Below are positions 31,031-60,519 of a stretch of DNA of 64,000 bases, in pieces. Under the pieces are notes generated by a model. It saw only the letters and a list, made by a program, of their open reading frames with translations, searched no databases and was not told the DNA's origin. Both the position numbers and the translations under genes were made by a program. This DNA comes from Takakia lepidozioides (taxonomy: Eukaryota > Plantae > Bryophyta), in assembly GCA_030704615.1 (NCBI GenBank), contig CM060732.1, forward strand, positions 59,644,001 to 59,708,000, written 5' to 3'. The number at the start of each line of letters is the position of its first letter. Position 1 is the stretch's first letter.

Positions 31031-34000
31031 TCAACGCTTCTTCCGCTTTTGAGGTCGTCCTTTGAAAGCTGCAACCGCCTCGGATGCGTTTCCCATTTCT
31101 GAGGCACGCACCCAAGATGCCTCCACATGATGATAGCCCTTCCATTTGACGAGATACTCTGTTTCTCGGTTCTTGAACCTCCTCGACTTAAGTATTGCCT
31201 CCACCTCGTACTCAGGTTCATTTTCATGATCCAACAGCATAGGTGGCGGACGCAACACTTGATGCCGATTCGGACGTGCTTCATCTTTGAAGTAAGGCTT
31301 CAAAAGGGAGACATGGAATACTGGGTGCACCTTGCTGTTTGCCGACAGCTCCAATTCATACACATCCTCATTCATAACCTTCCGAATGCGAAAGGGTCCC
31401 GCATACGGAGGTACGAACTTCGGACTCACTTCCGGAGGTAGTCGGAAATTCTTGATGTTCAACCAGACCTTCGTGCCTGCTTCAAACTTCACTTCCCTCC
31501 GCTTCCGATTCGCCTGCCTTTCATACCGTTTCCTAGCTTTGGCAATGTTGTACTTTGCGAGCTTCAATAAACGCTCGCGTTCTTCCAGTACCGCCGCTAC
31601 TGCCGGTTCCTCAACGTCCTGGGCGGCCCAACTTGTCGGCACCAGAGGTGCTTTTCCATAGACCAATACAAAAGGGGAAACTCCCGTTGCGGAGTGTTCT
31701 GTGTTATTATAACAGAACTCTGCCGCGTCTAAGTGTTCCACCCAGTCTGTTTGGTCTGCCGACACGTAATTCCGCAAGATCTGCTTCACTACGGAATTCA
31801 CTCTTTCTGTTTGGCCGTCGGTCGTAGGTCGGAAGGCGGTGCTCATCTTCAGCCTCGTCCCCATCTTCTTCCAAAGTGCCCTCCAAAATTTACTCGTAAA
31901 CTTTGGATCGCGGTCCGAGACAATATCCTTCGGGACTCCATGATGCTTTAAGACGTGGGCGAAGTAAAGTCGCCCTGTCTCCTGCGCCGTTGCCGTCTCC
32001 TTGGTGGGGATGAAATGGCCCATTTTACTGAACCTATCCACCACCACCATGATTGCATCGAATCCTTTTGACAGCGGCATAGCAGTCATGAAATCCATCG
32101 AGACGCTTTCCCAAGTCCCCTCTGGAATCGGCAAGGGTTGTAACAGCCCCGCTTGTTTTTGTACTCGCTCCGGTTTTGTTGGCATGTGGTGCATGTCTTG
32201 ACATACTCCTCTGCCTCCTCCCTCAGTTTGGGCCAGAAATACTCTTTCTTCAAGAGTGCCGCAGTGCGCTTGGCTCCGCCGTGGCCCGCAAGCGGGCTAT
32301 CATGGCATTCTCTCAAGAGGCTATCTCTGATCCCTCCCTTCGGCACGTAGAGACGCTTTTGCTTATACCGGAGCAGTCCATTTTGCAAGTGGAACTGCGA
32401 TTTAACCCCCATCCTCAAGTCCTGCATCACGGACTTCGCCAGCTCATCCTTCCGGCAAGCCTTTCGGATCTTCCTTTGGAGCGCCGTCTCGCCCTTGTAC
32501 ACCAACAAGAGCTGCTGCTTTCTACTTAAAGCATCGGCCACCCGTTGTCTCGTCCCGGTTTGTACTGGATATCCACGTCGAACACCGCCAAAGTATCTTG
32601 CCACCTAAGTTGTTTTGGGGACAACTTGGGCTGCGTGGCAAAATACTTCACCGTGACATTGTCCGTGAACACCTTCACTGGGTTGGAACCAACATAGTGG
32701 CGCCAAAGCTCAAGACAGTGCACCACCGCCTTCATCTCTTTCTCGTGCGTCGGCCACCGTCGCTCCACTTCATTCAGTTTCTTACTTTCGTAAGCCACTG
32801 GACGTCCATCTTGCATCAGTACACCCCCAATCGCGAAGTCCGACGCATCTGTATGTATCTCGAACGGACGATCGAACTCCGGGATTTTCAAGACTGGAGC
32901 TTCCGCCATCCGCTGCTTCAATTCAGCAAAAGCTTGGCCACAAAAGGTGTTCCATGCCCAGACTTTAGATTTACACAGAAGGTCTGACAGCGGCCCCGCG
33001 ATTTTGGCGAAATTTCTCACATACTTCCGGTAATAGGAGGCGAGTCCTAGGAAGGATCGCACTCCCGGGACCGAAGTCGGAGGCTCCCAGTCCAAGATCG
33101 CCCTCACCTTTCTGTCATCCATTTTGATCCCATCCTGTGTAATCACATGCCCCAGGAACTCCACTTTTGTGACCCCGAATTCGCACTTTGAAGCTTTGGC
33201 AACAGCTTCCCTTCTCGCAATTTTTGGAACACCCTTTTCAGGTGCTCCAGGTGCTCCAGGTGCTCTTTTGTTTTCGAGTACACCAAGATGTCGTCGATGT
33301 ACACGATCACAAAGTCATCCAACCACTCCTGGAAAAGGCTGTTCATCAGCGTGCTAAATGTCGCTGGTGCATTGGTGAGCCCAAAAGGCATCACCAAGAA
33401 CTCATATGAACCATACCTTGTCCTGCACGCGGTCTTCTCCTCATCTCCTTCCGCCACCCGAATTTGATGATAGCCGGAGCGCAAGTCGATCCGGCTGAAA
33501 TACTTCGCTCCTGCCAACCGATCAAAGAGGTCGTCGATCCTTGGCAAAGGGTACCGGTTTTTGATAGTCACCTTATTCGGAGCCCTGTAATCGACACACA
33601 TCCGCAGCGTCCCATCCTTTTGTCTGCAAATAGCACCGGGGCTCCGTAAGGTGACTTACTCGGCCGGATGTACCCCTTTGACATTAGATCTTTGAGCTGA
33701 GTCTTCAGCTCGACCAACTCTCTGTGGCTCAACCGGTAGGGCGCCTTGGCAGGCGGTTCCGATCCCGGTATCACCTCAATCTTGTGGTCAACTCCTCTTC
33801 GCGGTGGCAAGCCGCTTGGTAAATCCTCCGGCATCACATCCTGGTATTTCTCCAAAATTCCCCTTGATCCAATCTGGGCTCGGCTCCCCATCGCCTTCTC
33901 CCTTTACTTCTCTAATGTAAAGCAAAAACTGGGGCTCGTGTGCCTCCTCCACGGCCCACTCCCTTGCTGACAGAAGGTTTATTCGCCCTCCCACGGATTT

Positions 34001-34579
34001 GGGCGTTTCCGACACTCGTAAGACCTCGCCACCATTCCCACATGGCAGCGTGACTACTCTCTTGCGGCCATCTATGACCGCTCCGGATTTGCTCAAAAAG
34101 GTCATCCCCAAAATGAGATCCACTCCATCGATCTCGCAGATGGTGAAGTTCTCACGTCCCTCCCAACTCCCCAGTTGAAGAGGAACATCAAACGCCAACC
34201 TTGTCGCCAACTGTGGTTCTCCTTTGGCAGAACGCACCTCAATAGAGGCCCCCACGTCACTTGTCGGGAGTCCCAGCTTTTGTGCCGTTGCCGGTGTCAT
34301 GAAGGAGTGCGACGCTCCTGTGTCCACCAACAACGACACGTTAGTTCCGGATATTATCCCATCCACGAACAATAACTGACTCCCTTTACGTAAGGCGCCA
34401 GTTTCCTGATACAACTCACAAGAAAATTTGCCTACCTTGCAAGTCCTGGCGACCACCGCTTCCACCAAGCGACTGATGGTATCTTCCGACAGCTCTGTGG
34501 TCGCCCGAGTCATGTTCAATTGTCGGGGCTTCGTGCACTTCTTGGCCATGTGCCCGGGCTCCCCGCAATTGAAACACAC
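31031..34579 (-). pseudogene. Frameshifted pol: zinc knuckle, protease, RT, RNase H, integrase, chromodomain
   Basis: CFNCGEPGHMAKKC; LVDTGASHSF; YIDDIL; TDASDFAIG; H..PLAGH/CTTCQ; SMDF..VDRFSK..SDRD..DGQTERVN; YAGPF; EYEVEAIL...YLVKWKGY...SW. Confidence 0.95.
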
Positions 34580-35586
34580 TCCATCAAAGGTCGCCTTCTG
34601 TCCGCCATAGGCCGCTCCACCCGCTTTTCCTTTCGAAGCACCGGGTGCCGCCTTGACTTGTGAAGGCCCTCCCTTCGATTTCCACGTGCCATTGTCGCCG
34701 CGTGGCCTATCCCACTTCTTTTCCGGTCGGAAGGAGTCACCTTCCCGCCGGGTCTTAGCTCCGTACGGCCTTGTCTTTCACCCCTAGGGACATCTGAGAA
34801 ACATTCAGCCCTCTCAATTGCCTCGTTCAAAGTCTTAGGTGGCTTCTCCTCCAACTTCCGCCTGGCCCATGGGGCCAGTCCCGCCACAAAGTTGAAGACC
34901 ATTTCCGGTTCTGCCATGTCCGCGACTTCGAGCAAAAGCACATTGAAAGCCTGGACATATCCCCGAATGTCATCTGTTTGCTTCAAATTCCTCATCTTGT
35001 CCCGGGCAAGCCAGGACGCGTTGAGGGGCACAAACTGTCTCTTCATCAATTCCTTGAACCCACTCCAGTTCAAGGTTTCCGGGCTTGGACCTTGGTCGTG
35101 AAGGCGTTTCTGCCACCATTGTTGAGCATAGCCCCTCAAATAGGTGGGAGCCACTTCCACCCGATCCTCGTCACTCAACTTGGCCGCCCGGAAGTACTGC
35201 TCTAGCTCCAGGAGCCAGGTGTTGAGTGCCTTCCGATTTCGGACGCCCTCGAAGGTGCCGGGTTCCTTAGGCTTCACCTTAAACTTTGCCTTAGTGGAAG
35301 TGGCATTAGCCGCCTTCAACACGTCTTTCAACGTCCCGCCAAACTGCGCCAACAACCCTTCCCAAAAGGCTGCCGGCATGGGAGGCATCTCTTGGTTTGT
35401 CGGAGCTCTCAAGGATTCCTCGGGCTCCGACTCCTCAGATTCCTCCCGCTCTTGAGCGGCCTCGTTTTCAGAAACATGCATCGCTTCCTCAAACGGCCGC
35501 CTCGGTGACACGTCGCCCCCATCGGGCTCACCAGGATCATCATCTTTTGGGCCGTTCCGCTTTCGCTTTGGCTTGCCCGACCCCAT
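34580..35586 (-). pseudogene. gag (retrotransposon capsid), frameshifted before the zinc knuckle
   Basis: PGTFEG...WLLELEQYF...YLRGYAQQWW...LKQT..IRGYVQAF...FVAGL. Confidence 0.9.
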
Positions 35587-35627
35587 GATGAGGCCAATCC
35601 CAAGGACGATCGCGTACTGAACTCTAA

Positions 35628-35639
35628 GCTCTGATACCA
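35628..35639 (-). other. Primer binding site (tRNA-iMet)
   Basis: TGGTATCAGAGC just inside the 5' LTR. Confidence 0.92.
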
Positions 35640-35641
35640 AG

Positions 35642-36368
35642 TGTCGCGCACCTCACTTCGGTAAGCTCCCCCTCAAGTCATAGTTACTCGCTTTGATGCG
35701 CGCGCCTGACTCCCAACCTGGCCGCCGGGCCAACTTGGAGCTTCGGCTGCTCACCGGGGCATAACGGTCCCCCTTTGTTCTCCCAAAGAACCCTCCACCG
35801 ATTTGGAACCAGCGGGAATTCCCTTTGGTAGTTGGCAGTCCGGAACAGCTCCCCACTCTTTGGTCGCTTTCCGGCTCGCTCGCTTACTCACTAGTTTTTG
35901 GTCACCAACGGGCTTGCACCGTTCTCGGGGTTACTACTCCCTATATATACTTCTGTAGCTGTCCGCGGGGGTTTCACAACCAGCCATGCCATTTTATGGC
36001 GAACCACCACGAAAACCCTCGACTCCCGGTGATGAGTCGCGGTGAGTCTTGGCCCACTCACCACGGCCCTTATGGACCGTGATGAGTCCCAAGACTCCCC
36101 ACGACTCCCACCACGAGGTCTCCGCCCCCATGGTGAGTCCTATGCCACCCCCACTAAGTCCCGCTAAGCTACCACCACCCTTTGTGGAGCCACCCCCACC
36201 GCAACCCGGTGTGCGGGGCTCCACCTAGTGAGCGCCTCCGCCTCCTTGAGTGCCTTGGGCACTCAAGGGTGCTTCAGCCCCCCATACCTATCGCTGCCAC
36301 TGCCCCCACCACAGGGGCAGCCCCTCATGTGTCCCGACCCCCTGCCCTCAAGGCAAAGGGCCGCGACA
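35642..36368 (-). repeat. 5' LTR (727 bp)
   Basis: Matches the 3' LTR except ~4 substitutions, a 3-bp and a 45-bp indel. Confidence 0.95.
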
Positions 36369-37405
36369 GTTTGTCGTTCTAAACACTGCCCTGGTGGACA
36401 TATATGCCGAATGCGGGAGCATTGAAGATGCGATGGTAGTGTTCGACTGTGGCTCAACGAGATGTGGTGTCGTGGAGTGTGATGATCGCATTGGCAACAA
36501 GGCGAGGATGTATGCATGATTTGTGCAGAGGCAGTGATAGCTGAAGGAGCAGGATAGAGTGTGGGTCCATATTCATCCAAGAGGGTCGGATTTCAAGCTC
36601 CAGATTACCTATGGATCCCTGTGGAAGGATAGCTACAAGAAACCTCCATGGGTAGATGGTTAGCTGGAAGCGGCAGCTGTAACGGCACAGTTGATAAAAT
36701 CAGGCACCTCAACCATGACCACAGCTTCTGAAAGAGGATCAAGAGAGGGAGTCCACAATGCCTCTTCTGGCACTTATGGGCATGTGAAGATGCTTTATGA
36801 GGCAGGCAGACTGAAAGAGGCTCTACAGATTTTAAACCAAAGAGGCATTTTAGCAGATGTAGAACGTATGTGTGTCTCTTGCATAAGTGCATCAAGATGA
36901 AAGGCCTAGAAGTTGGAAAGCAGGAGCACACTCACATTGTCCAAAGTGGATTCACACCAAACGTTTTTCTGCTCAACAACCTTGTCAACATGTATGTTAA
37001 GGGGATCATCATGGATGATCACCAAGTGTTCAACACAGAATGCCTCAACGATCTTTGATCACGTGGAATATAATGTTGGCAGGATTAACAAGCATGGGCG
37101 TGGTACGAATGCTTTGGAGACCTGTGAGCAAATGATGCGCGAAGGGGTGAAGCCCAACCACATCGCGTTTGTATGTGTTTGCAATGCGTGTGCAAGCCTG
37201 GAAAAGGGGAACGAGGTCCATGGTGACATCGGTCAAAGCTGGAATTGCACTGGATGTCATTCTGAACACTGCCTTAACCTGGACATGTATGCCAAATGTG
37301 GATGCATTGAGGATGCAAAGGGAGTTTTCGACACTATGGCTGAACGAGATGTGGTGTTGTGGAGTGCGATGCTTGCAAGGTATGCACAACAGGGACGTGG
37401 GATGG
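36369..37405 (+). pseudogene. PPR fragment, then PDF exon - linker - PLS PPR N-terminus (best remnant of the source gene)
   Basis: 36374-36490 PPR; from 36571 IHPRGSDFKLQITYGSLWKDSYKKPPWVDG*LEAAAVTAQLIKSGTSTMTTASERGSREG...HVKMLYEAGRLKEALQILNQRG...CLLHKCIKMKGLEVGKQ.HTHIVQSGFTPNVFLLNNLVNMY...MYAKCGCIEDAKGVFDTMAERDVVLWSAML. Confidence 0.85.
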
Positions 37406-37424
37406 ACCCTACCCGAAAAGGGCT

Positions 37425-37492
37425 GTTTTATGACACCGCAGCGTGGCCCCGATGTCGACCCCCCCCCCCCCCTTTTTTTTTTTCCTGTAGTG
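37425..37492. mobile_element. Short CACTA right terminus (type C-like)
   Basis: ...GTCGACCCCCCCCCCCCCCTTTTTTTTTTTCCTGTAGTG. Confidence 0.55.
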
Positions 37493-37599
37493 GATGAAGT
37501 GGAAGAGGTTAGGTCGAGAGTTCGAAAGAATGGCAGAGGCATTTAGTAGAGGAGAAGATCGGGAAGAGGGAGAGTTAGTTTTTGTGGCTAGTGACGAGA

Positions 37600-38616
37600 A
37601 TGAGAAAAACGTTGCAAATTTGCGACCAATGGGGGTCGCAAAAAGACGAAACCGTGATTTGCGACGCTCGGGCGTCGCAAAAAAATAAAAATAAACCTAC
37701 TCTGCATTGCAGAATTAGCATCGTCCGGGGGTCGCAAAGTGCAACCCCCGGACGTCGCAATTTAAGGGGGTACATTTGAAAATTTGAATTGGAAATTTGA
37801 ATTTCAAAAACTTGTTGACCATGGACTCCGACGTTGACCATTCTGTCTAATGGCGATATATTCATTGTTCTACATATATCATGCAATGCTAAGACCTCCA
37901 TGTTATAACATTTCTAAGATATTACAGACTAATCAACACACACCTATGCTACATCTATGTATCACAAAACAATCTAAATATATATATATATATATGAAGA
38001 TTTTCTTCAAGTTCCTTCTAAGAAGGTCCCTCTTGTGACTCCTGGGAGTTGCAACCTCCACAACCTTAGTACCCAGCCCCAACACCAGCCCCAACGTCGT
38101 CACCGTTGTTGCACCCCCCCACCGCCAGGCGCCCCAAGCGATATCCTTGTGATGACATAAGCTGACTACAACACCATTGCGACCCCCTGGTGTCGCAACA
38201 TTGGCCGTCCCAGCGCGGGGCGCCCCCATCGACGCTTTTGTGAAGTTGAGGGCCGCAAAGCCAAAAAAAAAACAAAACAAACAAACTCTCATTATGGTGA
38301 TGTTGTTGCGACGCCCTGGCATCGCAGAGACGCCCTCGGTGACGCTTTTCCGATGCCAAGACGTCGCAACGTCCCAAAAAATAAAAAATAAAAAATAAAT
38401 TGCGAAGCCGAGGCGTCGCAAGAAAAAAAATCCGTCGCAGTGAGGGGCCTCTTTCCCCCTTCATGCCACCTTGCGACGGCTGGGCGTTGCAATGGTGTCG
38501 CAGCGGGGGATTGCGACGTCGGGGCGTCGCAAAAAAGTGCCGCGGGCTCAGCGCCACGCGGGGCATAGGGGCGCGGCTGGCGTTGCAACCCCCCCCCCCT
38601 CCCATTTGTTGTAGTG
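37600..38616. mobile_element. CACTA right terminus with GCGACG/CGTCGC subterminal repeats (type C)
   Basis: Ends GGCGTTGCAACCCCCCCCCCTCCCATTTGTTGTAGTG; resembles reverse complement of the 44290 terminus. Confidence 0.82.
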
Positions 38617-39674: not shown

Positions 39675-40816
39675 CACTAGATGCATTCGTGTCAACCACT
39701 AGGGTAACGACTCATTTTGAGTCGTAAAAGTAAAAAAACCGGGATCGACTGGAAGTTACAAACGACTAGTTACAACAGACGTGGAAGTTGGGTCGGACAT
39801 CCAATGATTGGAGTGGTAAAGGACGTAGACGCACGAACAACTGCTCAACGATTATTGCGATTAATGTTGAAGAACCACGTGGCGTAACCAGGCGGGCCGC
39901 TCGTGTGTCTGACCTTTTGGGCTGACTTTGGCCTTTCCCTCCGAATGAGTGGACTGATTCACCGGAGCGCGGTGACACATGGACGCGGACGTGGACGATG
40001 ATGTGGATGCCGACGTGGCGGTGCCGCGGCGAGCAGCACTGCTGCCACGTGGCCACGGGCCCGGGGCGCCACGTGGTAGTTGACCACATAATTTGCAGTG
40101 CTACATGCCTAGTGGAAATTGCGACTGCGGAAGTCGGCGCAACCACTGCTTTACTACTTTAAATGAAATGCTCAAAATTTCTTGAACAATCACTCATAGT
40201 GGTTCATGCTTTGAAGTTTTGGTGTTTGTAATGAGCCAACTAGTACATACGCATGTAATGCCATACAAGAGAACTAATCATGTCATTAGAAATGCGAAAA
40301 CAATGAAAGACATGCTATGAAACAAAACAAAATGAAAATGAAATGAAATGAAAGAAATGGTACTTTATTACATCTGCGGAAAGCTCAAAGAGCTTATGAT
40401 ACAAAATGAAAAAACCAAAGTAAAAAAGCAGCCCAAAGCTGCTACTGCTCTGGGGATTGCCTAAGGGTCAAGGCCTCATGCAGGTAAGCTGCCAAACAAT
40501 TGTGATCCTCATAATGCAAGGCTCAGTGACAGATTGAGTCCCACGGAATAGACCATCTACCCATGCAAGTTTCTTGTAGCTATTGATCCACAGGGAATCA
40601 TAGGTAATCTTGTGCTTGAAATTTGGCCCTCTTGGATGAATCTGGACCCACACTCTCTTTGTTCCTTCAGCTACACATGCCTCTGCACAAATCATGCATT
40701 CATCCTTACCTCCCTGCTAGTAGCTGACAATGACAGCCTAGATTTATTCTAGGGAACATCCAACTCAGCTTCTCACACTAGTTACTATTTTGAATGCATC
40801 TGCTAGTCTATGAAAT
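39675..40816 (-). repeat. Inverted copy of 1851-3062: CACTA type-B terminus + LINE tail + PDF module
   Basis: Starts CACTAGATGCATTCGTGTCAACCACTAGGGTAACGACTC; ORFs 39766-40146 and 40468-40695 mirror 2588-2968 and 1972-2265. Confidence 0.93.
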
Positions 40817-41210
40817 CACTAGAAGAGAAACCGGTTTTTTCCACGGTTTTTTCCACATTTTTTTCTGTGGAATCAGCTGTAGTCCACACCTGCCGTGGGT
40901 GTAAGAAACGACTAGTGCTTTCGGACACCTCGTGGACGGCCTGGCTCTCGGGTGGCCTTGTGGAAAAGTCCACGGGTGGCTTTTTCCACGGGAGGCTTTT
41001 TCCATGGGTGGCTTTTTTCACGGGGTGCATGGTGACATGGCCGCTGACATGGCCGATGGCATAGCTGACATGGTAGAGTGTGAAAAAGGCCAGTGTGGCA
41101 TGTTTCACGACGGATTACACACCTTGAACAAGCCACTATGCGACACGTGTCATATTTCACACGTTCGACAAGTCACTATGCAACACGTGTTCGTTCCTGT
41201 GTGGTGGTAC
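40817..41210. mobile_element. CACTA left terminus (type D)
   Basis: CACTAGAAGAGAAACCGGTTTTTTCCACGG with CCACGG/CCGTGG subterminal repeats; interrupts the PDF-module intron, which is uninterrupted at 1851. Confidence 0.8.
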
Positions 41211-41434
41211 GTATTAATTAATTATTAATTGATTTCCAATATTAAGTTTGAATATTAATGGATTTAATTTATTGTTATTATTACGATGATGATTATTATT
41301 ATTATTATTATAGGAAAAATGGAGAGTGGCCTTGATGAGAACATTATTAAATAACAAAATATTGAAATTATGTTTTTAAAAATTATATTTATTTGCTCAG
41401 AAAACACACCCTTTGCGGGGAATGAGAGTTTGCC

Positions 41435-42243
41435 TTAGTGTCTATGCTGAGTTGCGTCTCCTACTCTTTGTAATCTAATAGACATTCACATTTTTCCCTC
41501 AGTTGTCCCACCCTTGACTAGGGTCAGAAAAACATTCATTCCACAGCTTCTCCTCATCTCTGTTACATGTTTCTGGATACTTTCCTATTGTCACTTTGGC
41601 AGTATCATGTCAAAATCACTCCAAACTATGTACCATCTACCCATGCAGGTTTCTTGTAGCTATCCTTCCACAGGGAATCATAAGTAATGTGGAGCTTGAA
41701 ATCTGGCCCTCTTGGATGACACTCTATCCCTGCTCCTTCAGCTATCCATGCCTCTGCACAGATCATGCATACATCATTGCATTGTTGTTAGCAGCTGACA
41801 ATGGCAACCTAGATTTGTTCCAACAAACACCCAACTCAACTTATCACACCAGTCCATATTCTCAATTGCATCTACCACTCTGTAATCCAAAGGCATTTAC
41901 CTTCCAAGACGGTTGTCCCACCATTGACTGGGGTCGGAAAAGTATTCATTCCACAGCTTCTCCTCTCTGTTACCTATTTTTGGATACTCTCCTATTGTCA
42001 CTTTGGCAGTATCATGTCAAAGTCACTCCAAACTATCAAAGGTTCACTCAAGCTAACTTGCAAAATTCTTAAAACATGAAAATTTAGGGCGATTCTAATA
42101 AGAGGGGAAAACAGAGTGAAATGTGTTGAAGAAGGTGCCTTGATTAGCATTGCCTGATTTTATCAATTGTGCCGCTGCTGCTGCGGCTTCCAGTTGACCA
42201 TCTACCCATGCAGGTTTCTTGGAGCTATTTTTCCACAGGGAAT
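41435..42243 (-). repeat. PDF-module fragments (~2 copies)
   Basis: Reverse complement of the same exon/intron unit; DSLWKNSSKKPAWVDGQLEAAAAAAQLIKSG. Confidence 0.85.
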
Positions 42244-42986
42244 CACCCCTTCCCGCATCATTGCTCATAGGTCTCCAAAACCTCCATCCGCGCCCTTGCT
42301 GTGCATATCCTGCAATCATCGCACTCCACGACACCACATCTCGTTCAGCCATACTGTCGAACACTTCTTTTGTATCCTCAATGCACCCACATTTGGCATA
42401 CATGCAGTTGCTCATAGGTCTCCAAAGCATTCCTACCACACCCATGTTAAATCCTGCCAACATTATATTCAACGTGATCAAAGTTCGTTGAGGCATTCCG
42501 TTGAACACTCGATGTGCATTCATGATGCTCTTGCACTTAACATACATGTTCACAAGGGTGTTGAGGAGAAAAACACTTGGCGTGAATCCACTTTGGATAA
42601 TGTGAGTGTGCACCTGCTTTCCAGCTTCCAGACCCTTCAATTTGATGCACTTAAGCAAGAGACAGACATACATATCTGAATATGCTGAAATGCTCCTTGG
42701 TTTAAAGGTTGTAAAGCCTCTTTTAGTCTGCCTACCTCACAAAGCATCTTCACATGCCCAGAAGAGCCAGAAGAGGCATTATGGACTCCCTCTCTTGATC
42801 CTTTTTTAGAAGCTGTGGTCATGGTTGAGGTGCCTAAATTAAATCAGGGCTGCCAGGCCTGCAATGCACACAAACATGATGTGGCCGGGCTGAACCCCTT
42901 CCCCCATCATTTGCTCATAGGTCTCCAAAGCCTCCATCCCACGTCCCTGTTGTGCATACCCTACAAGCATCGCACTCCACAACACC
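42244..42986 (-). pseudogene. Linker + PLS PPR fragments
   Basis: MTTASKKGSREG...MLCEVGRLKEALQ...YVCLLLKCIKLKGLEAGKQVHTHIIQSGFTPSVFLLNTLVNMYVKC...MYAKCGCIED...DVVSWSAMIAGYAQQG. Confidence 0.88.
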
Positions 42987-43213
42987 CATGAAATGGTAGG
43001 CACATTTCATACGACAGTTAAGATCCTAGAGTCACTTTTCGAGTCACAACTTCACTAAAATCATTCCTAGATTGCCACACCTACAAAGGATGTTTTTCAT
43101 GGATTTTTCATTAATCAATCATAGAAATAAGCTACATGCATGTACATGTACAATCAATCGAAGGGATGGGTACAGTTATGTGTGAGAATTATTATGTAGC
43201 TTTGATTACGTTT

Positions 43214-44041
43214 CTAATCAACTTGAACATCATCATCCGGAGCTTCTTCGTCTTCATCAAGCTGCAAGTCTTCTTGCTCATCAGAGTCATTGTCATAAAT
43301 GGCCTGGTCACCAAAAGGCACATCTGAATCATCTTCCACCTCAGTTTCAATGACCATGTCTTCATCTTCTTCTCCAACATCCGCATCTGATGGAGCCTCA
43401 TCGTATAGGGTCCGGGATGCATTGTCCGGGGCGTCATCATTCTCTTGTACCCCCTCTATCCAACCTCGGCCAACATCAGCGTTATCATGACCAGTCTCTT
43501 CCTCCTCCGCATTTGCCTCGCCCCATGTAGATCCCCGACCATGATAGATACGTCTTCCTCTTGGCTGAGCATGCACAACCACCTTCCAATTTCCTGATCT
43601 GGAGAAGAAAACTTGCTCCATGTCTGAAGGCCATGAAAAAGGCTCATCGGAGAGACGATGAGTAGACTCGAGCCTATCTGTATTGACGCGCATGAAACCA
43701 CACTCGTCTTCCACTATTGTTGCGGATGGCCCCAAGATATGGCTGGAACCACCTTGCCTTGAAGATAAGAGGCCGGTGCCTTGTATACTGAAGTTGGAGT
43801 ATGCTCTCAAGCTCTCCAAAGTAGTTGAGTGTGCTCATGGTAGGTCGTGTATCTCCCCTGCCCCACACGGAGTCTTGCCAATATGAGGCACACAAGCCAG
43901 AATCAAACGTTGTTTTGCGCTTCATGTCAAGAGCACGAATGCGGAAATGACGACCATGAAACCAAACCGCCGTGTATGAGGTCGCAAATTGAGAGGGGCC
44001 CCTTGCAATGTCTTGCACCAAATCTGAAACCACCTCACCTT
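43214..44041 (-). pseudogene. CACTA transposase C-terminal part (DUF4216-like) with acidic tail
   Basis: ARGP...HGRHFR...DSG...YFGELESILQLQY...FKARWF; DECGFMRVN...DEPF...QVFF...WKVVV. Confidence 0.85.
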
Positions 44042-44289
44042 CCTTTTCCAGGGCTGCCAGGCTCGCGCATTGCATATACAAACGAACGTGGCCAGGTCTA
44101 TGTGACCAGGTCTGGCTTTATCCCTTCCCGCATCATCGCATCATTTGCTCATAGGTCTCCAATGCCTCCATCCCGCATCCATGTTGGAGAATATCCCGCC
44201 ATCATCACACTCCAGGACACGACATTTCGTTCAGCCATATTCTCAAACACTCCCTTTGTATCTCAATACTATCACATTTGGCATACATG
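44042..44289 (-). pseudogene. PPR fragment inside inverted segment 1
   Basis: MYAKC...GVFENMAERNVVSW...MMREGIKPDL...CASLAALEK. Confidence 0.85.
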
Positions 44290-45296
44290 CACTACTACGT
44301 TTAGGGGGGGTTAGCGACGCCGGGACCCCGAGCGCGCCAGACGCGACGACCCTCCTACGACTGCTGCGCTGCGTAGGCGCCCGGCCCAGACATTGCGACG
44401 TCCGCGCGTTGCCGCAGTGCCGCTCCGGTGACGCTTTGCCAGCTTGCGATTCAGCTACGTCGCTGCAGTTGGGGCATGACCCGCCAACAAGCTGGGGGTT
44501 GCGACACCGGGGCGTCGCACGTGCCCTCTGTGACGCTCCCGCAAGGCTGCGACGCCCGGGAATCGCAACAACACCTCCTCACACTTAGGCGCGTGGGGAG
44601 GGTTGAGCCAGCTCGCATTGTTCCGGTGGATTTGCTCCAAAGAGCTGGAGGAAGCGGACTTTCCACGTATGAAGAAGGAGGCAGCGGCGGTCATGTGTAT
44701 GTTGGAGATGCACCTTCCTCCCTCCTTCTTTGCCATCCAAGTGCACTAAGTAGTGCACTTAGTGGAAGAGGCTTCGATTGCCGGCCCCGTTCATTCTCGG
44801 TGGATGTACTACCTTGAGCGATACATGAAGACTTTGAAAGCACATGTAAGACAAATGGCACACCCGGAGGGTAGCATGGCGGAGGGGTATACATTGCAAG
44901 AGGCTATGTTCTACTGCATGGAGTACTTGACAAGGGTGGATAAGGAAGCCCCTCCGATGTGGAAGGAAGATGAGGATGTACGACCCAAGGACATCGTTTT
45001 GCCCAAAAATTCAAAGAGGGTAAAATTACCCATCATGGTGATTGACCAAGCGCATGAGTTGATACTAAAGAACACCCCATCCATACATGAGTGGGAGGAA
45101 AGATACAATCACCTTGTTCAGCAACGACAGGAGGAGACGGTTGCGTGGAGGCGGAACCATGCAAGGGCGACTACACGCGCTCCGCGAGCAAGAGGCCGGC
45201 GTAGGAATGTGCCTTCACAAGAATTGCCCATGGAATTGCAGCCTCTAAGTTCATTCCGCCATTGGCTTCGGACTGAAGTAGAGGATAGCATTGCGA
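44290..45296 (+). mobile_element. CACTA type-C left terminus joined to transposase DUF4218-like segment
   Basis: CACTACTACGTTTAGGGGGGGTTAGCGACGCC; from ~44694 MCMLEMHLPPSFF..QVH*VVHLVEEASIAGPVHSRWMYYLERYMKTLK...PEGSMAEGY. Confidence 0.9.
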
Positions 45297-45825
45297 AAAG
45301 AGGTTCATGGTGAAATCATCAGAGCTGGAATTGTACCCAACGTCATTCTGAACAATACCCTCGTGGACGTGTATGCGAAATGCGGGTGCATCGCGGATGC
45401 GAAGGGAGTTTGCAACTATGGCTGAACGATGCTTGCGGGGTATGCACAGGAAGGCCGCGGGAAGGAGGCTTTGGAGACCTATGATCAAATGATGGCGGAA
45501 GGGGTGATCATGTGCAAGGCTGGCAGCCCTGGAAAAGGGCAAAGAGGTCCATGGTAACATTGAATTGTACACGATGTCATTCTGAATAGTACTCTCGTGG
45601 ACATGTATGCAAAATGTGGGTGCATCAAGGATGCAAAGGGAGTGTTCAAAAGTATGGCTGAACGAGATGTGGTGTCGTGGAGTGCGATGATTGCAGGATA
45701 TGCACAGCAAGGGCGCGAGATGGAGGCTTTGGAGACCTGTGAGCATCTTCCTCAACACATTTCAGCCTGTTTTCCCTGTTATCAGAGTCGTCCATAAATT
45801 TTCAGGTTGAATTCTGCAAGTTATG
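45297..45825 (+). pseudogene. PPR fragments followed by PDF-module intron piece
   Basis: KEVHGEIIRAGIVPNVILNNTLVDVYAKCG...; DMYAKCGCIKDAKGVFKSMAERDVVSWSAMIAGYAQQG; switches to module intron at ~45756. Confidence 0.88.
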
Positions 45826-46419
45826 GGTGCCTGCAATTGTACTCTTCCCCCTTCTTTACACCCGCATTTCTATATTCATAGCCACAACAGATGGATGTCA
45901 TCAAGTCATGGTAAAGGGCTTCTTTGAGAAAGAAATGCTAAAATGCACCAGGGTTAAATTTCATTCTTGGGATTCATGGCCCCTTCCACTATGGTAGTGG
46001 GCCTCTTTGTTTCTGTTGTTGTTCCATCTTTTAGTCTTTTCTGCTCTTTCAAAACTAGGTACAGGCATTAACTTGGCTTGAAGACTACTAGGGCAAGCAA
46101 TGTCTAAATATCATTTTTTTTCTTTCTCTATCCCTGGATGTAATAAGTGTCTTCCTTGTTCTTTTACTGAGTTCATTTCATTCAGTCTTAACTTGGTGCT
46201 CTTACACCTCGAGCAATGAAACCCCACAAGCTCCAAGACCAAAAGTAGTCCATTTGCATGATGTTGCACATTTTTGCTTTGGGAGACCTGGTTTCTTATG
46301 AGAAACAGGGAGAGATCTGGCCACATGGGAAGTTCTTGATGATATATGACAGATTTATCAATGGTATCTCACAGGACAAGATTGGCGTGCAAAAAGGTGA
46401 ATGCATGTTGGAAGCGCAA

Positions 46420-46959
46420 GTCAGCATAGGAACTTGTGTGATAAGTAGGGTTAGGGTGTTTGTTGGAACAAATCTAGGCTGTCATTGTCAGCTGCTAGTA
46501 GCAAGGCAAGGATGTGTGCATGATTTGTGCAGAGGCAAAGATAGCTGAAGGAGCAGGGATGGAGAGTGGGTCCATATTCATCCAAGAGGGCCAGATTTCA
46601 AGCACAAGCTTACTTATGATTCCCTATGGATCAATAGCTACTTGAAACCTGCATGGGTAGATGGTCAACTAGATGCCGCAGCAGCAATGGCACAACTGAT
46701 AAAATTAGGCACTGGTCATCAAGGCACCTTCTTCAACACATTTCACCCTGTTTTCCCCTCTTATCAAAATCAGCCCTAAATTTTCATGTTGAATTTTGCA
46801 AGTTAGCTGGTTGAGTGAATGTAGTTTGGAGTGACTTTGACATGATACTGCCACTGTGACAACAGGAAAGTATCCAAAAACACATAACAGAGATGAGGTG
46901 AAGCTGTGGAATGAATACTTTTCTGACCCCATGAGTCAATGGTGGGACACCGAGGCAAA
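46420..46959 (+). repeat. One nearly complete PDF module
   Basis: intron - IHPRGPDFKHKLTYDSLWINSYLKPAWVDGQLDAAAAMAQLIKLG - intron - DE.KLWNEYFSDP..QWWD. Confidence 0.88.
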
Positions 46960-48449
46960 AATTTCAGTCTAGTGCCAAGAGTGGGTAGGCCCTTGAGGTC
47001 ATCCATGATGTCCTCCCCATGCCACCCACAGACTGGAAACAAGTTCAGGGAAGCTTTCTGCCTAACTTCATTTTCATCATACAATTTTCTGGTAACAGAC
47101 ATGCCTTTGGACACTATAGCCTCTAAGTCATATTTGTCCAACAGGGTCAGTGACTTGCGGGTCTTTACTACCCAAAGAGTGATAAGTTTAGGAATTTGGA
47201 CCTTGCCTGCTTGCTTGGAACCAAAGATGGTCCATCCTCCCTACTTTAAGCCAGTATCAAGGATTTCCCCCTCCTTTGTTTTGGGTGGACGGTGGTGGGC
47301 AGTGTTTATAGTCGGTATCATAGCTTGAAGGCCTGCAATGTGTACTTATTGTTCTGCAAGTGATGAATTATGAAAATTCAATGATGCCCATCATTTGAAG
47401 AGTGCTAGTTGGCCTAGCAATGAAATACCAGAGCACCTCCTCTTCCAATTAAATCCAGGCAATATGATTTTGGTTGGTAAATGAAACTCTGTTGCTACAA
47501 GTTCATGTGATTCCCTTTACTCATTTTTGTCTTATTTTTGGATTATCTTGTTGCCTCACAAATTCACCACTAAGCTGTATGGGACTGCATCTCTTGGTTG
47601 GTACCCCCAAGACCAAATAGAAATAGGTTGAGCCATTTTTATCTGGTAAGTATGTGGTAAGTATCTGGTAATGTATCTGGTAAGTGCTGTACGTTCTGTT
47701 ATGTTGCAGGCTATAGATTGGTATCCTACATTCAAGGATATGCTGGACAGTAATGACCTTGACAAAGTGCTTCTTGGGATCACAACTATTACCAGAGGTA
47801 GATACCCATTGCTATTTTTTCTTATGAGGTCCTACCACATGTTCATCACCAGGACTCCACCTTTCCAGCAGAATGTTTCGTGGATGATGTCTTGTAAGTA
47901 CACCAAATGGAATTCCTGACCTATAGGTAGCACTCGACGCCATGTTTTGGCAAACACTGCATGTTCAAACGTAAAGCAGCTAGAAAAGTATCAAGGTGCT
48001 TATTCACCTAAGACTGCAATGAGTTGGGACACAAAGCAGCTGTAATTAGTTTGAGCTCGTGATATGTTGTTATGACAGTGATGGTTTCTTTTGTACATGT
48101 AGGTGTGCAGGTTCACATGCAATTTTACACAGAAGAAAAGAAGCAAGCAAATGGAGTGTTGGCCATTCATGTTTCTCGGTCTTATGTTCGAAGGCAACCC
48201 ATGGAGCTTTTGTCTGACATGTTGAATGTTAGTACTGTATGTTCCATGTATCATTGACATTAAGGGTTCCGTTATGTTTCATCCTAGGTTGTCTCCCTCC
48301 GTGTTCCAACTTCAATTTGAATGTGTTTCTGAGCAGTTCAGTTGCTGGTTGCCGGTTGAGATGTTCTACTCAATCTTGCAATTGAGTTTGGATGTTCTAG
48401 TCTGCTTGCTCATATGCAGAGGAGAAGTAGAGAGGGGAAGTCCAAAAAA

Positions 48450-49647
48450 CTTCTTTCTGACCCCAGTCAATGGTGGGACAATAGAGGCAAAAAGGTGAAT
48501 GCCTGTTGGATTACAGAGAGTAGCAGATGCCATTGAGCATAGGGTGATAACTGGAGTTGGGTGTTTGCTGGAACAAATATAGACTGTCATTGTCAGCTGC
48601 TAGCAGTAAGGCAAGGATGTATGCATAATCTGTGCAGAGGCATGGATAGCTGAAGGAGCAGGGATAGAGTGTGGGTCCAGCATCAAAGAGGGCCGGATTT
48701 CAAGCACAAGATTACCTATGATTCCCTGTGGAAGCAGCACGGGTAGATGGTCAACTAGAAGCAGCAGCAACAACGACACAATTGATAAACTCAAGCACTG
48801 CTAATCAAGGCACCTTCTTCAACACATTTCACCCTGTTTTTCCATCTTATCAGAATCGGCCCTAGATGTTGAATTCTTCACATTAGCTGGTTGAATGAAC
48901 CTTTGATAGTTTGGAGTGACTTTGACATGATACTGCCAATGTGACAACAGGAAAGTATCCACAAACAGGTAACAAAGACGAGGAGAAACTGTGGAATGAA
49001 TACTTTGTGCCCCAGTCAATGGTGGGACAATCGAGGCAAAAAAGGTGAATGCCTATTGGATTACAGAGAGTAGCATATGCTATTAAGCATAGGAACTAGT
49101 GTGATAAGTAGGGTTGGGGTGTTTGCTGGAACAATTCTAGGCTATCATTATCAGCTGCTAGCAGCAAGGCAAGGATGTATTCATGATTTGTGCAGAGGTA
49201 TGGATAGCTGAAGCAGCAGGGATAGAGTGTGGGTCCAGATTCATCCAAGAGGGCTGGATTTCAAGCTCCAGATTACATATGATTTCACGTGGAAGGGTAA
49301 CTACAAGAAACCTGCATAGGTAGATTATCAACTGGAAGCCGCAGCAGCAACGGCACAATTGATAAATTTAGGCACTGGTAATCAAGACACCTTCTTCAAC
49401 ACAATTCACCCTGTTTTTCCCTCTTATCAGAATTGGCCCTAAATTTTCATGTTGAATTCTGCAATTTAGCTAATTGAGTGAATTTAGTTTGGAGTAACTT
49501 TGACATGAAACTGCCAATGTGACAATATGAAAGTATCCAGAAACAGGTAACAAAGATTATGAGAAGCTATGGAATGAATACTTTCTGACCCCAGTCAATG
49601 GTGGGACAATCGAGGCAAAAAGGTGAATGCCTGCTGGATTACAGAGA
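48450..49647 (+). repeat. Tandem array of PDF modules, period ~550-580 bp
   Basis: CCCCAGTCAATGGTGGGACAAT at 48461, 49010 and 49589. Confidence 0.92.
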
Positions 49648-49649
49648 AT

Positions 49650-49975
49650 TAGCCACGCGCTGGCGTCGCCCAAACGTCGCAGCCGGGCGACGCCCGGGAA
49701 TCGCCATGACGTCGCCGCCATTTGGGGGCGTCGCTAGACTCCCATGGGTAAGGAGGTTCGGTAGCGACGCCCGGGAATCGCAGGGACGTCGCAGCCCCCG
49801 GGGCCGTCGCTAGCTCCATGGGAGGGCGCGTTCGTGTGCGACTCCCTGGAGTCGCAACAACGTCGCAGCCCCTTTGTGGCGTCGCTAGCTCCACGTTGGC
49901 GTGGTTCTGTTGCGACGGCGGGGAATCGCAGCAGAGTCGTTGGTCGCACCCGGCCGTCGCTGGGTGGGAGGGTAG
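49650..49975. mobile_element. CACTA type-C subterminal repeat block (no terminus)
   Basis: Dense GCGACG/CGTCGC motifs. Confidence 0.7.
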
Positions 49976-50210
49976 CCAGCTGGTATTTGGGGTGGGGTTT
50001 TGGGGTTTTTTTTTGTTTTGGGGGTGGGGGGGGGGTTCTTGGGGGTTGGGGTGTGCCTCGTGCTTGCATGAAATGCATGCATTCTAATCTATAGATTATA
50101 TTAGAATCCACATGTCCATTAAGGTTAGAATGAGGATCGAAATGGTAATTGAAGAAATATATACATAAAGCGAGTACTACCTTTACATGTCTCTAACTGG
50201 GAACCATCCC

Positions 50211-51650
50211 TCACTCCTCATCACCTGAGTCATAGGTGTACTTGTCCGAGGAATGCAAGCTACGCTGGGCCTCTAATTTGGAGGATAATGAGGCCGAGTC
50301 CGAGATTACATCATCCTTCGAACCACCCCCTACTACTGGCTCTCCCCCATCCGGCCGAGCCACTGAACTACCCATCCCCACCCCTACAGATGCACTATCC
50401 TCCGTCAATTGTGGCGTCTTGGCCATTAAGGCTACAAGGGCCTTCCACCCCTGAGTCTTGCAAAAGTTGTGCTCGATGGCGGAGGGAGGCCTCTCAAACT
50501 TCTTTTTCTGCACTTGACATACAAATGCAATGACAGGTCAGAATTCATAATGAAGGGAGAAGCTAAAAAAGAAGAATGGGTATGACAAGAGAAAGAACAC
50601 TTACAAATCGGGTGACAAAACTCTTGCTTCCGCCGGGGCCCCACTTGTGTGTTGATTCCGCACACTTCTCGAGGCGGGCTGCAGTTGCCGCACGTCCCCT
50701 TGCGAAGATCTCCGCCTTCAGCTCTTCCCTCTCCCCTGCGATGAGAGCCTCCCAAGATTCATGTCCAGCCCCAACAAAGACACTATAAATGTTAATGAAC
50801 TCCATACCGCAATGAACATGCATTCAAAGACACCAATGACAAGTGAAGTGCGTCTTACCTTGGTTATTCCATGTGGCATGGTCGTTGGTTCCCCCGCCTT
50901 GAGTGCCTTCCGATTGGTTTGTCGCGCACGGTACCTCTTGTCCTTGAGGTTCTTTCCCACCAGCTCCAAGAGCTTCCCCTCATTCCACTCACCCGGAAAT
51001 GTGCCCTCAAGTGCTTGCACGAATGCTCGCCTATGGCGATGTGATTGGTGTGGCCAATCAATATGCCAAGGGAACCACCTCGCCGCCAAGTCGAAGGCTA
51101 TTTTTTTCATGGCCTCCCAATACTCACCAATGGGGTCACCGACCTTATTGGTCTCTAAGGGGGCACCTTCATCTTTGGCAAATCAAGGTTGCGGGGACCC
51201 GAGGTCTTTACCTCGTCCACGCTCTTCTGAACTACCTCTCCCTTGTCTTTTGTTGCCCCGCTAATGCCCTCCACCGGCTGCACGCTCATCTGAACTAGCT
51301 CCCCCTTGTCTTTTGTTCCCCCACTAGTGCCCTCCCCCGGCTGCACCTCTCTCCTTCTTCGCCTCTTCCTCTTACGCTCCCTCTCCTGGGCCTGTCCTTT
51401 ACCCTTCCCCTCCACTACTTCCCTCCCCCCCTCCACTACTTCCCTACCCTCCTTGATGATTAGGGGAACCTCGAGGACACGACGTCTTTTCCTCTTCCTC
51501 TTACCGTCCCCCACGGGTAGGCACCACCACTGTCCCTGCTTTGTCGGTGGCAATCCCACTGTCCCCCCCCCCCCTCAACAGTCCCTTTCTCTCCCTCTCT
51601 CCCTCTGTCTCCCTCCTCGGAACTGGCCGGTTGCATCAGTGTTCTTTTCA
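50211..51650 (-). pseudogene. Probable CACTA second ORF (TnpA/Transposase_24-like), spliced and degenerate
   Basis: FDLAARWFPWHIDW...LKDKRYR...PHGI^..SWEAL...HKWGPGG..F; GT-AG junctions at ~50858 and ~50604; context among CACTA pieces. Confidence 0.55.
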
Positions 51651-57802: not shown

Positions 57803-57868
57803 ATTCATTATGAAGTATAATTAGCATGGTGGAGCATTGAAACAATTAATGGTGTGAATGTCTCATAG

Positions 57869-58866
57869 GGAAAAAAAACAAGTGAAAGACATGGACACGT
57901 ACTTGCGACCTCTAATTGATGAACTGAAGGAGTTATGGAGGGGGGTCCCGGCAATGGATGCTTCACTTGACCCTATGGCCGGACAGTCTTTTCAGATGAG
58001 AGACATCTTGCTTTGGACAATGCATGATTATCCAGGTATATTATGTTCCCCATGAGAAACCCGCGTACATTTACTTGTCAAGGGATATTGATGAGGATTG
58101 GGATTGATTGAAGTAGCGGCGACAGTCTTCTGCACCGTAGTGGGGTAGATGCACATGGGAACTTTTTGTCTTTCCTAATGTGGCGGAATGTCTACAGGAC
58201 TTATTGTTTGCTCGGGGTTGAGCACTAAAGGGTACCACGCATGCCTGCATTGTGGCGATGAACTTGATGCACAAAGCTCCAGCAATCTTCGCAAGATGGT
58301 GTATCCCAACTACCGCAAGTTTCTTCCTATGAGCCATCATTGGAGAAGAAGAGACAAACACTTGTTTGATGGCAAAATGGAGTTATGTCCCCCACTTGTG
58401 ACACCATCCGGGCACTTTTGGGAAGACCGATGGAAGGAGGCCCATCCGGAGGGGTCCGGTGAAGTGGAGGTGCCCGGCATGAAGGGGCTTTAAATCTTCC
58501 ACGAGTTGCCATATTGGGCGGTACATATTCCACAAAAACACCATCAATATTGCTATGCATGCATGTGATATTGCATGTTTTGTATGATTTCCATTGTCAC
58601 TTTCACGACAAAATAGGCGTGTAAGAATTTGTGGGTGGGGATATGTGTAGGACCTGAAGATTCGTCATCTTCTAGATCCCATGCATATTGAGAAGAATGT
58701 TTGCTCGTCCTTTTTTCGTGTTCTTCATGGCACGCCGACAAAGAAGGGAGTGGCTGCGAAAGGATATTCTCTCGGTGTTAGAAAGGAACTTGAGGAGCAG
58801 GGTCGCATGCCCCATCTATGGGTCGAAGAAAATGGTGTGGACCCAAAGGGTGTTGTACGGTGGAAG
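57869..58866 (+). pseudogene. CACTA transposase middle part (Transposase_21 second half), spliced
   Basis: DMDTYLRPLIDELKELW...LLWTMHDYPG^...SGLSTKGYHACLHC...RKFLP..HHWRR...FDGK...FHELPYW^DLKIRHLLDPMHIEKNV. Confidence 0.92.
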
Positions 58867-59092
58867 TATAGAGTAGCGTATGCCATTGAGCATAGGAACT
58901 AGTGTGATAAGTTGAGTTGGGTGTTTCCTAGAAAAAATCTAGGCTATCATTGTCAGCTGCTAGCAGCAAGGCAAAGATGTATGCATGATTTTGTGTAGAA
59001 GCATGGATAGCTGAAGGAGCAGGGATAGAGTGTAGGTCCAAATTCATCCAAGAGGGCCGGATTTCAAGCTCCAGATTACCTATGATTGCCTG
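58867..59092 (+). repeat. PDF module intron + first half of exon (inside inversion 2)
   Basis: ...IHPRGPDFKLQITYD. Confidence 0.85.
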
Positions 59093-60099
59093 CACACGGT
59101 ACAATGGCAGCCAACATGATATGGCATTTTTTTTATTGAAAGATACGGAGGGATGTTGTAATTCACCATGGTCACCGGCCAAGTGGAATGACTACATGAC
59201 TAGACAGAGAATGGGTTGACCCCATCCGAGGAGAAGCCGAGGCGGACATGTCGTGGGTCCTCCAAGAGAAAAAGCCACATCTCTTCAGTATGCCTCCATG
59301 CTTGTGAATCTTGTGGCCCGCACACCTTTCCCGGGGGGCTCTGAGGCGTACCATCTCATCAGTTCTGCCAATGAGGGGCTTCGGTAGTGTGCCTGCAGTC
59401 GCGGGATGATTGGAAAGTAGTGCATTTTCTGGCACCATCCCCATGTTGGCCCCATATCATAATCAGTGTCATTCATATCTCTAAGTAAAACCTTACGTCT
59501 TGTAGCGGTTGCAAAAAGGTAGAATGCAATATACAAGTGTATTTGTGGCGCGGGTATACCTTGCGCGGGGCTTTCTTCCCTTGAACATCATGCCGATATC
59601 GGTCTTTGTTGCATTTTGGACACTTGGTGAGTTTCACATCCTCTCCGTAGTATAGGGTTTTATCACATGGACATGCATGAAAAATCTTATAGCCCATCCC
59701 CACAGCATCCAAGGCTGCTCTTGCCTCTTTTCTTGATCGTGGCATTCTCAGCTTCAAATGTGGGGCAAGGATGTAGTCCGCAATAGTCCGCATTATGGCG
59801 GACATACCCACATTGCTTATGCCAAACCGGATTTGCAAATTCAGTAACAACAAGATGGTTGAAAGTCTACTCACTTTGGCCCCTTTGCATAAGGGATTTT
59901 TGGCTTCTTTTTCCATGTCATTCAAAGAGTCTGTGTCCTCATCTACCATCTGATGCATTAAGAGGTCCTCCATTGCTGCCACATCCTCATGCATAATTCC
60001 ATTGTCATTGTTGTCCTCATCATCGGAGACCGCCATTTCAGACGGGGTTGGGTCCCTTTGATACGCACCCCCCTCCAAAGGAACAAAATCCCGGTTCAT
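59093..60099 (-). pseudogene. CACTA transposase N-terminal part (Transposase_21 first half)
   Basis: EAKNPL...MGYKIFHACPCDKTLY...CPKCNKDRY...YFPIIPRLQ...DPRHVRLGFSSDGVNPF...HSTWPV...YNIPP...IMLAAIVP. Confidence 0.92.
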
Positions 60100-60519
60100 G
60101 ACAAAATCATGAACTTCATGAATTAACGTCGTGGGGTTGTGGCCGACATCCTAAGATGTAAAAAACAACCATGTCATTATCAGTTTCCATACATGACGTT
60201 GTTCATTATCATACAAGATAAAACCCAAAGTACACATTATACACACGAGGGGAATACAAACATTGCTTCACCACATGAAGGAGACACTATATAATTCAAA
60301 ATACCCAAATTCACATATAACGTCCACCCAAACTCCGCGTGTTTATCGACGTGTCACGCTTGAGGATTTGTTGCCGGCTGTGCCATAACCACCCGCTGAG
60401 CAAGAGACAGCACGTTCGCCTCGTCTACGAGTTAGGCGGCATCGCCATGTCCGCACAACTTTGCCCCCATTGGCCACCACCCCAAGGTCGTAGGCCGCCA
60501 AGTCCAGAGGCACGAGCCC

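What the first reader, a model, noticed from the sequence alone, without database searches (positions are those of the whole stretch)
44042..45296. Reciprocal inversion 1: re-flipping 1.25 kb restores both a CACTA transposase and a PPR motif
Seen: the left junction (minus strand) reads PPR CASLAALEK | transposase EGEVVSDLVQDIARGP. The right junction (plus strand) reads transposase WLRTEVEDSIA | PPR KEVHGEIIRAG. Inverting 44042-45296 gives in-frame ...EDSIAKGEVVSDLVQDIARGP (DUF4218 to DUF4216) and ...AALEK(G)KEVHG, with only ~2 nt missing. It also puts the CACTA TIR at the element end, abutting the PPR MYAK codons. Breakpoints share only a short GAAAAG-like microhomology. The by-product is an in-frame PPR-transposase chimeric ORF (43674-44081).
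Basis: seen in the sequence. Interest (0 to 1): 0.78.

Follow-up and report, generated by a model that had tools for sequence, protein, structure and literature searches.

The report
Flipped segment scarring a dead transposon
A 1.25-kb piece of plant DNA is flipped, cutting through a dead jumping gene and a dead PPR gene copy, likely because two chromosome breaks were rejoined the wrong way round; this is an ordinary repair scar, though pieces of what is likely the same jumping gene are shuffled further nearby.

Summary
The inversion is in the assembly, at 44042-45296 exactly. Contigs of other family copies in 3 samples match the transposase to 45298 and run on into the window's minus strand from 44039: the transposase join lost nothing. 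The PPR join is 2 nt short against 3 of 3 paralogs. The 'GAAAAG microhomology' is wrong: the left junction is blunt, the right shares 2 nt, and there are no inverted repeats. Neither break is at a transposon end. This fits classical end joining of two breaks, a known process. Re-flipping restores continuity, not function; the chimeric ORF has about nine PPR-like codons and ends at a frameshift. Reads could not test the junctions. Beyond the finding: a second 1.29-kb inversion (57803-59092, also 2 nt short) and a third in-register join scatter four non-overlapping transposase pieces over 17 kb. One shattering event is possible (about 0.2) but unshown; the third join alone is not above chance. 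The scan noted a similar scrambled Tc1 element in another genome (e1-7507598, unchecked). Interest 0.25.

The parts
44042..45296 (.). Inversion 1 (1,255 nt), the finding
44042..44289 (-). PPR pseudogene piece P1 (MYAK... to ...LAALEK), with stops and frameshifts; continues at 45297 after re-flipping, 2 nt short
44290..44616 (+). CACTA terminal repeat and subterminal repeats; family contigs run on past 44616 with sequence not found in the window
44615..45296 (+). Transposase piece c (DUF4218, E 3.5e-21), joined directly to the subterminal repeats; stop at 44747
43023..44041 (-). Transposase piece d (linker, DUF4216-equivalent region, acidic tail); frameshift near 43732; family contigs leave the window sequence at 43023
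45297..45745 (+). PPR pseudogene piece P2 (KEVHG...), with internal deletions and stops
43674..44075 (-). Chimeric open frame: 11 codons before the junction (about nine PPR-like), then transposase, ending out of frame; no Pfam hit
57803..59092 (.). Inversion 2 (1,290 nt): breaks in a 578-nt PPR-associated repeat (2 nt short against 4 of 4 paralogs) and likely at the start of a transposase intron
57803..58869 (+). Transposase piece b
59093..60150 (-). Transposase piece a (N-terminal part)
49648..51230 (+). Subterminal repeats without a terminal repeat, followed by the 3' part of the element's antisense gene (matches L001 antisense ORF, E 2e-17)
49590..49647 (+). End of a repeat copy that is in register with the copy starting at 58870 (3 shared letters, none lost): candidate third break

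Best explanation
The 1,255-nt segment 44042-45296 is inverted between a break in a CACTA transposase and a break in a PPR pseudogene, with no base lost from the transposase and two from the PPR copy, and it likely arose when two nearby double-strand breaks were rejoined in flipped order by classical end joining. Shown: the inversion in the assembly, the breakpoints, the base balance, no inverted repeats, no break at a transposon end. Inferred: the repair pathway; that it is one of several separate repair accidents that piled up in a decayed transposon and PPR cluster; and that it has no function.
For: Exact transposase join from family contigs in 3 samples; 24 of 24 homologs in the re-flipped order; 2-nt gap against 3 of 3 PPR paralogs. 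Longest inverted match within 60 nt of both breakpoints is 6 nt, equalled or beaten by 92% of 300 random pairs. In gamma-irradiated Arabidopsis 16 of 26 rearrangement junctions had 0-5 bp indels, which the authors ascribe to c-NHEJ (PMC8775353, passages). Two breaks on one chromosome can give an inversion in plants (PMC8316200, passages). Only 568 of 5,626 natural plant inversions had an inverted match near both breakpoints (bioRxiv 2022.08.31.506062, passages). The copy is decayed: in 24 of 40 rows shown (86 listed) at least 90% of X1 depth differs from the window letter (my count).
Against: The pathway is read from junction letters only; template switching can leave the same scars. Both 1.3-kb inversions straddle a junction of an apparent three-way exchange (about 44616 and 58869), and under the inferred ancestral order the breakpoint graph has a 3-cycle and needs at least 5 reversals, which separate two-break events explain poorly.
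Confidence: 0.6

Rival explanations
1. The inversion is one pair of joins out of a single multi-break event that cut one CACTA element and its PPR neighbourhood into about eight pieces over 17-20 kb and re-ligated them in shuffled order and orientation.
For: Four transposase pieces tile one protein without overlap, on alternating strands, with about 83 aa missing between b and c. The four repeat ends that abut element pieces pair off in register (+2 and -3 nt). The third pair's partners (subterminal repeats at 49648, end of piece b) are not neighbours in intact relative L001. Cycles 2,2,3,2.
Against: Over all 156 pairs of repeat ends, 3 are in register against 2.4 expected; the 1.6% chance for the third join holds only after a post hoc restriction to element-adjacent ends. 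The family continuation of the repeats at 44616 is not found at 49648, so that adjacency is inferred. Two sequential inversions plus a resection also fit. The fourth event's breakpoints were not located. The pieces could come from two copies of the family.
Confidence: 0.22
2. Replication-based template switching, or microhomology-mediated end joining, produced the flip.
For: 2 shared letters at the right junction, 3 at the candidate third join; small inversions in complex patterns are attributed to replication errors (bioRxiv 2022.08.31.506062, passage cut short).
Against: Left junction is blunt, losses are 0-2 nt, and no duplicated or templated filler is seen at the inversion 1 junctions; medium deletions with microhomology mark that pathway in Arabidopsis (PMC8775353).
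Confidence: 0.08
3. The flip is an assembly or library artefact (chimeric molecule or mis-join) and does not exist in the plant.
For: No independent sequence confirms either derived junction. The region is made of high-copy repeats.
Against: Both junctions are reciprocal to within 2 nt and join unrelated sequences with no repeat to mislead an assembler; the window has no N; a second inversion shows the same pattern. From general knowledge (recalled), amplification chimeras give single unbalanced junctions.
Confidence: 0.07
4. The CACTA transposase caused it by alternative transposition, or recombination between inverted repeats did.
For: A CACTA end lies inside the segment; reversed Ac ends can make inversions in maize (PMC1592236, listing and start of abstract only).
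Against: The terminal repeat is 248 nt inside the left breakpoint, both breaks are in coding sequence, there is no 3-bp target duplication, and no inverted repeat above chance.
Confidence: 0.03

Closest known systems
End-joining inversions in plants (radiation-induced, PMC8775353; paired nuclease cuts, reviewed in PMC8316200)
   Same: Two breaks, flipped middle, junctions with 0-5 bp indels and little microhomology.
   Different: Natural and old rather than induced; 1.25 kb against 15 kb to 14.9 Mb in the irradiated set; both breaks in dead repeats.
Natural plant inversions without flanking repeats (bioRxiv 2022.08.31.506062)
   Same: No inverted repeats at the breakpoints; lies in transposon-rich, gene-poor DNA.
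   Different: Found by internal reconstruction from family copies, not genome comparison; near that study's 1-kb lower limit.
Plant chromoanagenesis (poplar, PMC8423247)
   Same: Clustered joins of blunt and short-microhomology type, some inverted.
   Different: Here 17-20 kb and fewer than 10 located junctions, against 10-kb to Mb fragments and more than 10 events per arm; no copy-number data; single event not shown.
SPO11 double-cut end joining in mouse germline (bioRxiv 2020.06.23.168138; PMC13532658)
   Same: Closely spaced breaks, local inverted reinsertion, triple-cut model; 2-nt overhangs that may be removed or filled.
   Different: Mouse inverted inserts are 16-709 bp, accompany deletions and show a median 5-bp microhomology at one end; no hotspot data here.
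CACTA (En/Spm) DNA transposons with Transposase_21, DUF4218 and DUF4216; intact relative L001
   Same: CACTA end, subterminal repeats, transposase order and introns, antisense second gene.
   Different: The window copy is in pieces on both strands, lacks about 83 aa and its second end; 38% identity to L001 in the best segment.

Membership tests
Balanced two-break inversion | Both junctions reciprocal: re-flipping restores both parental sequences | tested here: met
   Transposase 0 nt lost; PPR 2 nt lost
Balanced two-break inversion | Junctions present in molecules of the source individual | tested here: inconclusive
   Only contigs of other samples could be laid; none shown to bridge
Classical NHEJ product | Indels of 0-5 bp and little or no microhomology at junctions | tested here: met
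   0 and 2 nt lost; 0 and 2 nt shared; criterion from PMC8775353
Classical NHEJ product | Dependence on Ku and ligase IV | not testable with these tools
   Historical event
Inversion by recombination between inverted repeats | Inverted homology in register at both breakpoints | tested here: not met
   Longest inverted match 6 nt, null median 6
Alternative transposition | Breakpoint at a transposon end with a target-site duplication | tested here: not met
   End at 44290, breaks at 44042 and 45296 in coding sequence
Chromoanagenesis | At least 10 clustered rearrangements on one chromosome | tested here: not met
   Seven junctions located in three reciprocal sets; criterion from PMC8423247; further unpaired junctions exist
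Chromoanagenesis | All joins arose in one event | not testable with these tools
   Needs relatives or haplotypes; a 3-cycle is only suggestive
CACTA transposon | Terminal repeat starting CACTA with subterminal repeats | tested here: met
   One end at 44290; family contigs diverge left of 44290
CACTA transposon | Tnp2-type transposase | tested here: met
   DUF4218 in the window; pieces align to L001 exons with Transposase_21 and DUF4216
CACTA transposon | Second terminal repeat and 3-bp target duplication | tested here: inconclusive
   No partner end with matching flank in the 64-kb window
PPR gene family (PLS class, label recalled) | PPR motifs | tested here: met
   Paralogous pieces 42098-42736 and 36910-37494 hit PPR and PPR_2; P1 and P2 match them at about 74-92%; P1 and P2 were not scanned themselves
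PPR gene family (PLS class, label recalled) | Intact reading frame | tested here: not met
   Stops and frameshifts in all three frames after re-flipping

The most novel reading that the evidence does not exclude
A natural, inherited micro-shattering: one CACTA element and its PPR neighbourhood were cut at seven or more sites within 20 kb in one event and re-ligated almost without loss. The 2-nt loss at both inversions would point to 2-nt staggered cuts such as SPO11 makes, giving a fossil of meiotic multi-cut end joining in a plant.
Probability: 0.2. Interest if true: 0.55.

Novelty: new member of a known kind. Interest (0 to 1): 0.25.

Why it matters
As a single inversion in dead repeats it matters little: it is a clean, base-resolved example of a known repair outcome. 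Its value is methodological and cumulative. High-copy transposon and PPR families let breakpoints be reconstructed to the base without a second genome, so a genome-wide count could measure how natural small inversions form in this lineage. If the clustered joins prove to be one event, or a 2-nt loss recurs across many, it would show kilobase-scale shattering as a route of transposon decay and gene-family shuffling.

Tried and rejected
Whole genome: none held, so no genome-wide count. Read test of the derived junctions: only contigs were available; the last bin (45312-45320) had no depth in 4 of 4 runs and nothing ran over the ends, but the PPR flanks given were 22-24 nt, under the 31 needed to count a bridge; the 32 records shown of more than 50,000 included no bridge. 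Many window letters are absent from these runs, so they may lack this copy; a hole proves nothing. No RNA holder listed. Homolog search among longer proteins: 244 candidates, none at E 0.001. Metagenome scan: 62 pattern matches, 1 relative, L001 at 38%; no close full-length copy, so the joins at 44616, 43023 and in the intron could not be checked at base level beyond loose ends. Missing transposase stretch between b and c: not found in the window at E 10. Family continuation of the repeats past 44616: not at 49648 nor elsewhere; the three near matches are other repeat units. Partner terminal repeat: none. Source of the 36-nt filler at 42987-43022 and of the stretch after 56030: no informative match. 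All-pairs test of repeat ends: not above chance. GAAAAG microhomology, inverted-repeat recombination and alternative transposition: rejected. Paper searches returned nothing; others listed nothing on natural kilobase-scale shattering in such a plant (titles and abstract starts only); ten searches of an incomplete library are weak evidence of absence. Earlier findings: none near this place or with 'inversion' in this genome. No supplements were read.

Full report
Setting. The window is land-plant DNA full of decayed PPR pieces, a 578-nt PPR-associated repeat and several transposons. No whole genome is held. An earlier, unreviewed note calls the host a moss (e1-10610744); I did not test this.

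Observation. Re-flipping 44042-45296 in a script gives a 304-aa open transposase frame from 44750 across the join. Of 150 homologs, 40 align across that join by more than 15 aa each side; 24 hit the two pieces separately and all 24 place the right-hand piece first. The other 110 were not examined one by one.

Base-level balance. The intact element therefore reads through with nothing lost. The two letters at 45297-45298 fit both parents; the left junction is blunt. The PPR join has a 2-nt gap against 3 of 3 in-window paralogs, and the X1 loose end before 45297 shows the same two extra letters (21 contigs, agreement 0.76). An alternative parse (2 nt duplicated on the transposase side, 4 lost on the PPR side) gives the same net. 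The GAAAAG seen at the right junction is created by the join. The longest inverted match within 60 nt of both breakpoints is 6 nt, equalled or exceeded by 92% of 300 random pairs. A different family copy in X1 and X2 joins 45210 to 43547 on opposite strands, as the re-flipped order predicts.

What is not restored. The element has a stop at 44747 and a frameshift near 43732. Its subterminal repeats join the transposase directly at about 44616, where family contigs diverge both ways. The PPR frames carry stops. The chimeric frame has its first ATG at 44075, 11 codons before the junction, no Pfam hit, and ends out of frame. The copy differs from the family majority at 24 of the 40 rows shown (86 listed), at least 2.3% of 1,053 bases, so it is not new.

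What could not be checked. No raw reads of the source were available; the derived junctions are neither confirmed nor refuted by reads (see Tried and rejected). An artefact is unlikely on the junction anatomy but not excluded.

Surroundings. L001 is a full-length relative with both CACTA ends, an antisense gene and the transposase exons. Against it, the window holds four non-overlapping transposase pieces: a (59093-60150, minus), b (57803-58869, plus), c (44615-45296, plus), d (43023-44041, minus), with about 83 aa between b and c absent. Seven of 12 long homologs listed hit both a and b, all in that order. Re-flipping 57803-59092 rejoins the repeat with a 2-nt gap against 4 of 4 paralogs; the element-side break likely lies a few bases into an intron that L001 has at the same place (read by eye, not confirmed by family contigs). 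A third pair of repeat ends, 49647 and 58870, is in register with 3 shared letters, and its partners were not neighbours in L001. Under the ancestral order inferred from L001 the breakpoint graph has cycles 2,2,3,2 and needs at least 5 reversals; two of the assumed adjacencies are inferred and the fourth event was not located. Against over-reading: across all 156 pairs of 25 repeat ends, 3 are in register where 2.4 are expected; only the post hoc restriction to the four element-adjacent ends makes the third join unlikely by chance (about 9/578).

Mechanism. Best: two breaks 1.25 kb apart rejoined in flipped order by classical end joining, one of several accidents at a decaying locus (0.6). Junctions with 0-5 bp indels were 16 of 26 in irradiated Arabidopsis and were ascribed to c-NHEJ (PMC8775353, passages); paired cuts give inversions in plants (PMC8316200, passages); most natural plant inversions lack flanking repeats (bioRxiv 2022.08.31.506062, passages). 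Rival: one multi-break event (0.22); poplar chromoanagenesis shows the same junction types at far larger scale (PMC8423247, passages), and this locus does not meet its criterion of ten or more events. The 2-nt loss at both inversions matches the 2-nt overhang of SPO11, whose double cuts can be end-joined with inverted inserts in mice (PMC13532658 and bioRxiv 2020.06.23.168138, passages); two cases are a hint only. Template switching (0.08), artefact (0.07) and transposase- or repeat-driven inversion (0.03) fit worse.

Verdict. Observation confirmed; interpretation partly supported; a new member of a known kind. The scan has noted scrambled elements in other genomes (unchecked), which suggests such scars are not unique. 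Interest 0.25.

Noticed in passing
window 57803-59092: Second balanced inversion, 1,290 nt, 2 nt short on the repeat side.
   Followed up: yes
window 49647|49648, 58869|58870, about 44616: Three junctions that may form one three-way exchange moving the middle of the CACTA element into the repeat.
   Followed up: partly
window 901-908 and 56786-56802: Two ends of another CACTA family (similar terminal repeats, same subterminal motif) with the same 3-bp flank and in-register repeat flanks, but in reversed order 56 kb apart; suggests a large duplication or block move.
   Followed up: partly
window 2060-3062 and 39675-40673: Inverted 1-kb duplication at 92.8% identity, 37 kb apart, ending in a CACTA-like end.
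   Followed up: no
window 29448-36368: LTR retrotransposon (LTR pair 92.9% identical, gag/pol-like ORFs on the minus strand) inserted inside a PPR pseudogene piece.
   Followed up: no
window 906-1990, 41436-42245, 46389-46961, 48453-49647, 56107-56788: A 578-nt repeat that runs into the PPR N-terminal region at 36702 and occurs in tandem, broken and inverted copies; likely the 5' region of an expanded PPR family.
   Followed up: partly
window 37407-37492, 37590-38616, 40817-41435, 57745-57760: Further CACTA-like ends and subterminal blocks abutting PPR or repeat pieces without visible partners.
   Followed up: no
window 42987-43022: 36-nt filler of unknown origin between transposase piece d and a PPR piece.
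   Followed up: partly
window 60754-61464: Proline-rich open frame antisense to transposase piece a, with no Pfam hit; L001 has a proline-rich antisense ORF but no match was found.
   Followed up: partly
window 18920-19747 and 26358-29014: A Root_cap domain exon (E 2.2e-24), and three long minus-strand frames with no Pfam hit that look transposon-like (likeness is my impression).
   Followed up: no
L001 113-10154: Full-length CACTA element with a divergent antisense gene upstream of the transposase.
   Followed up: partly
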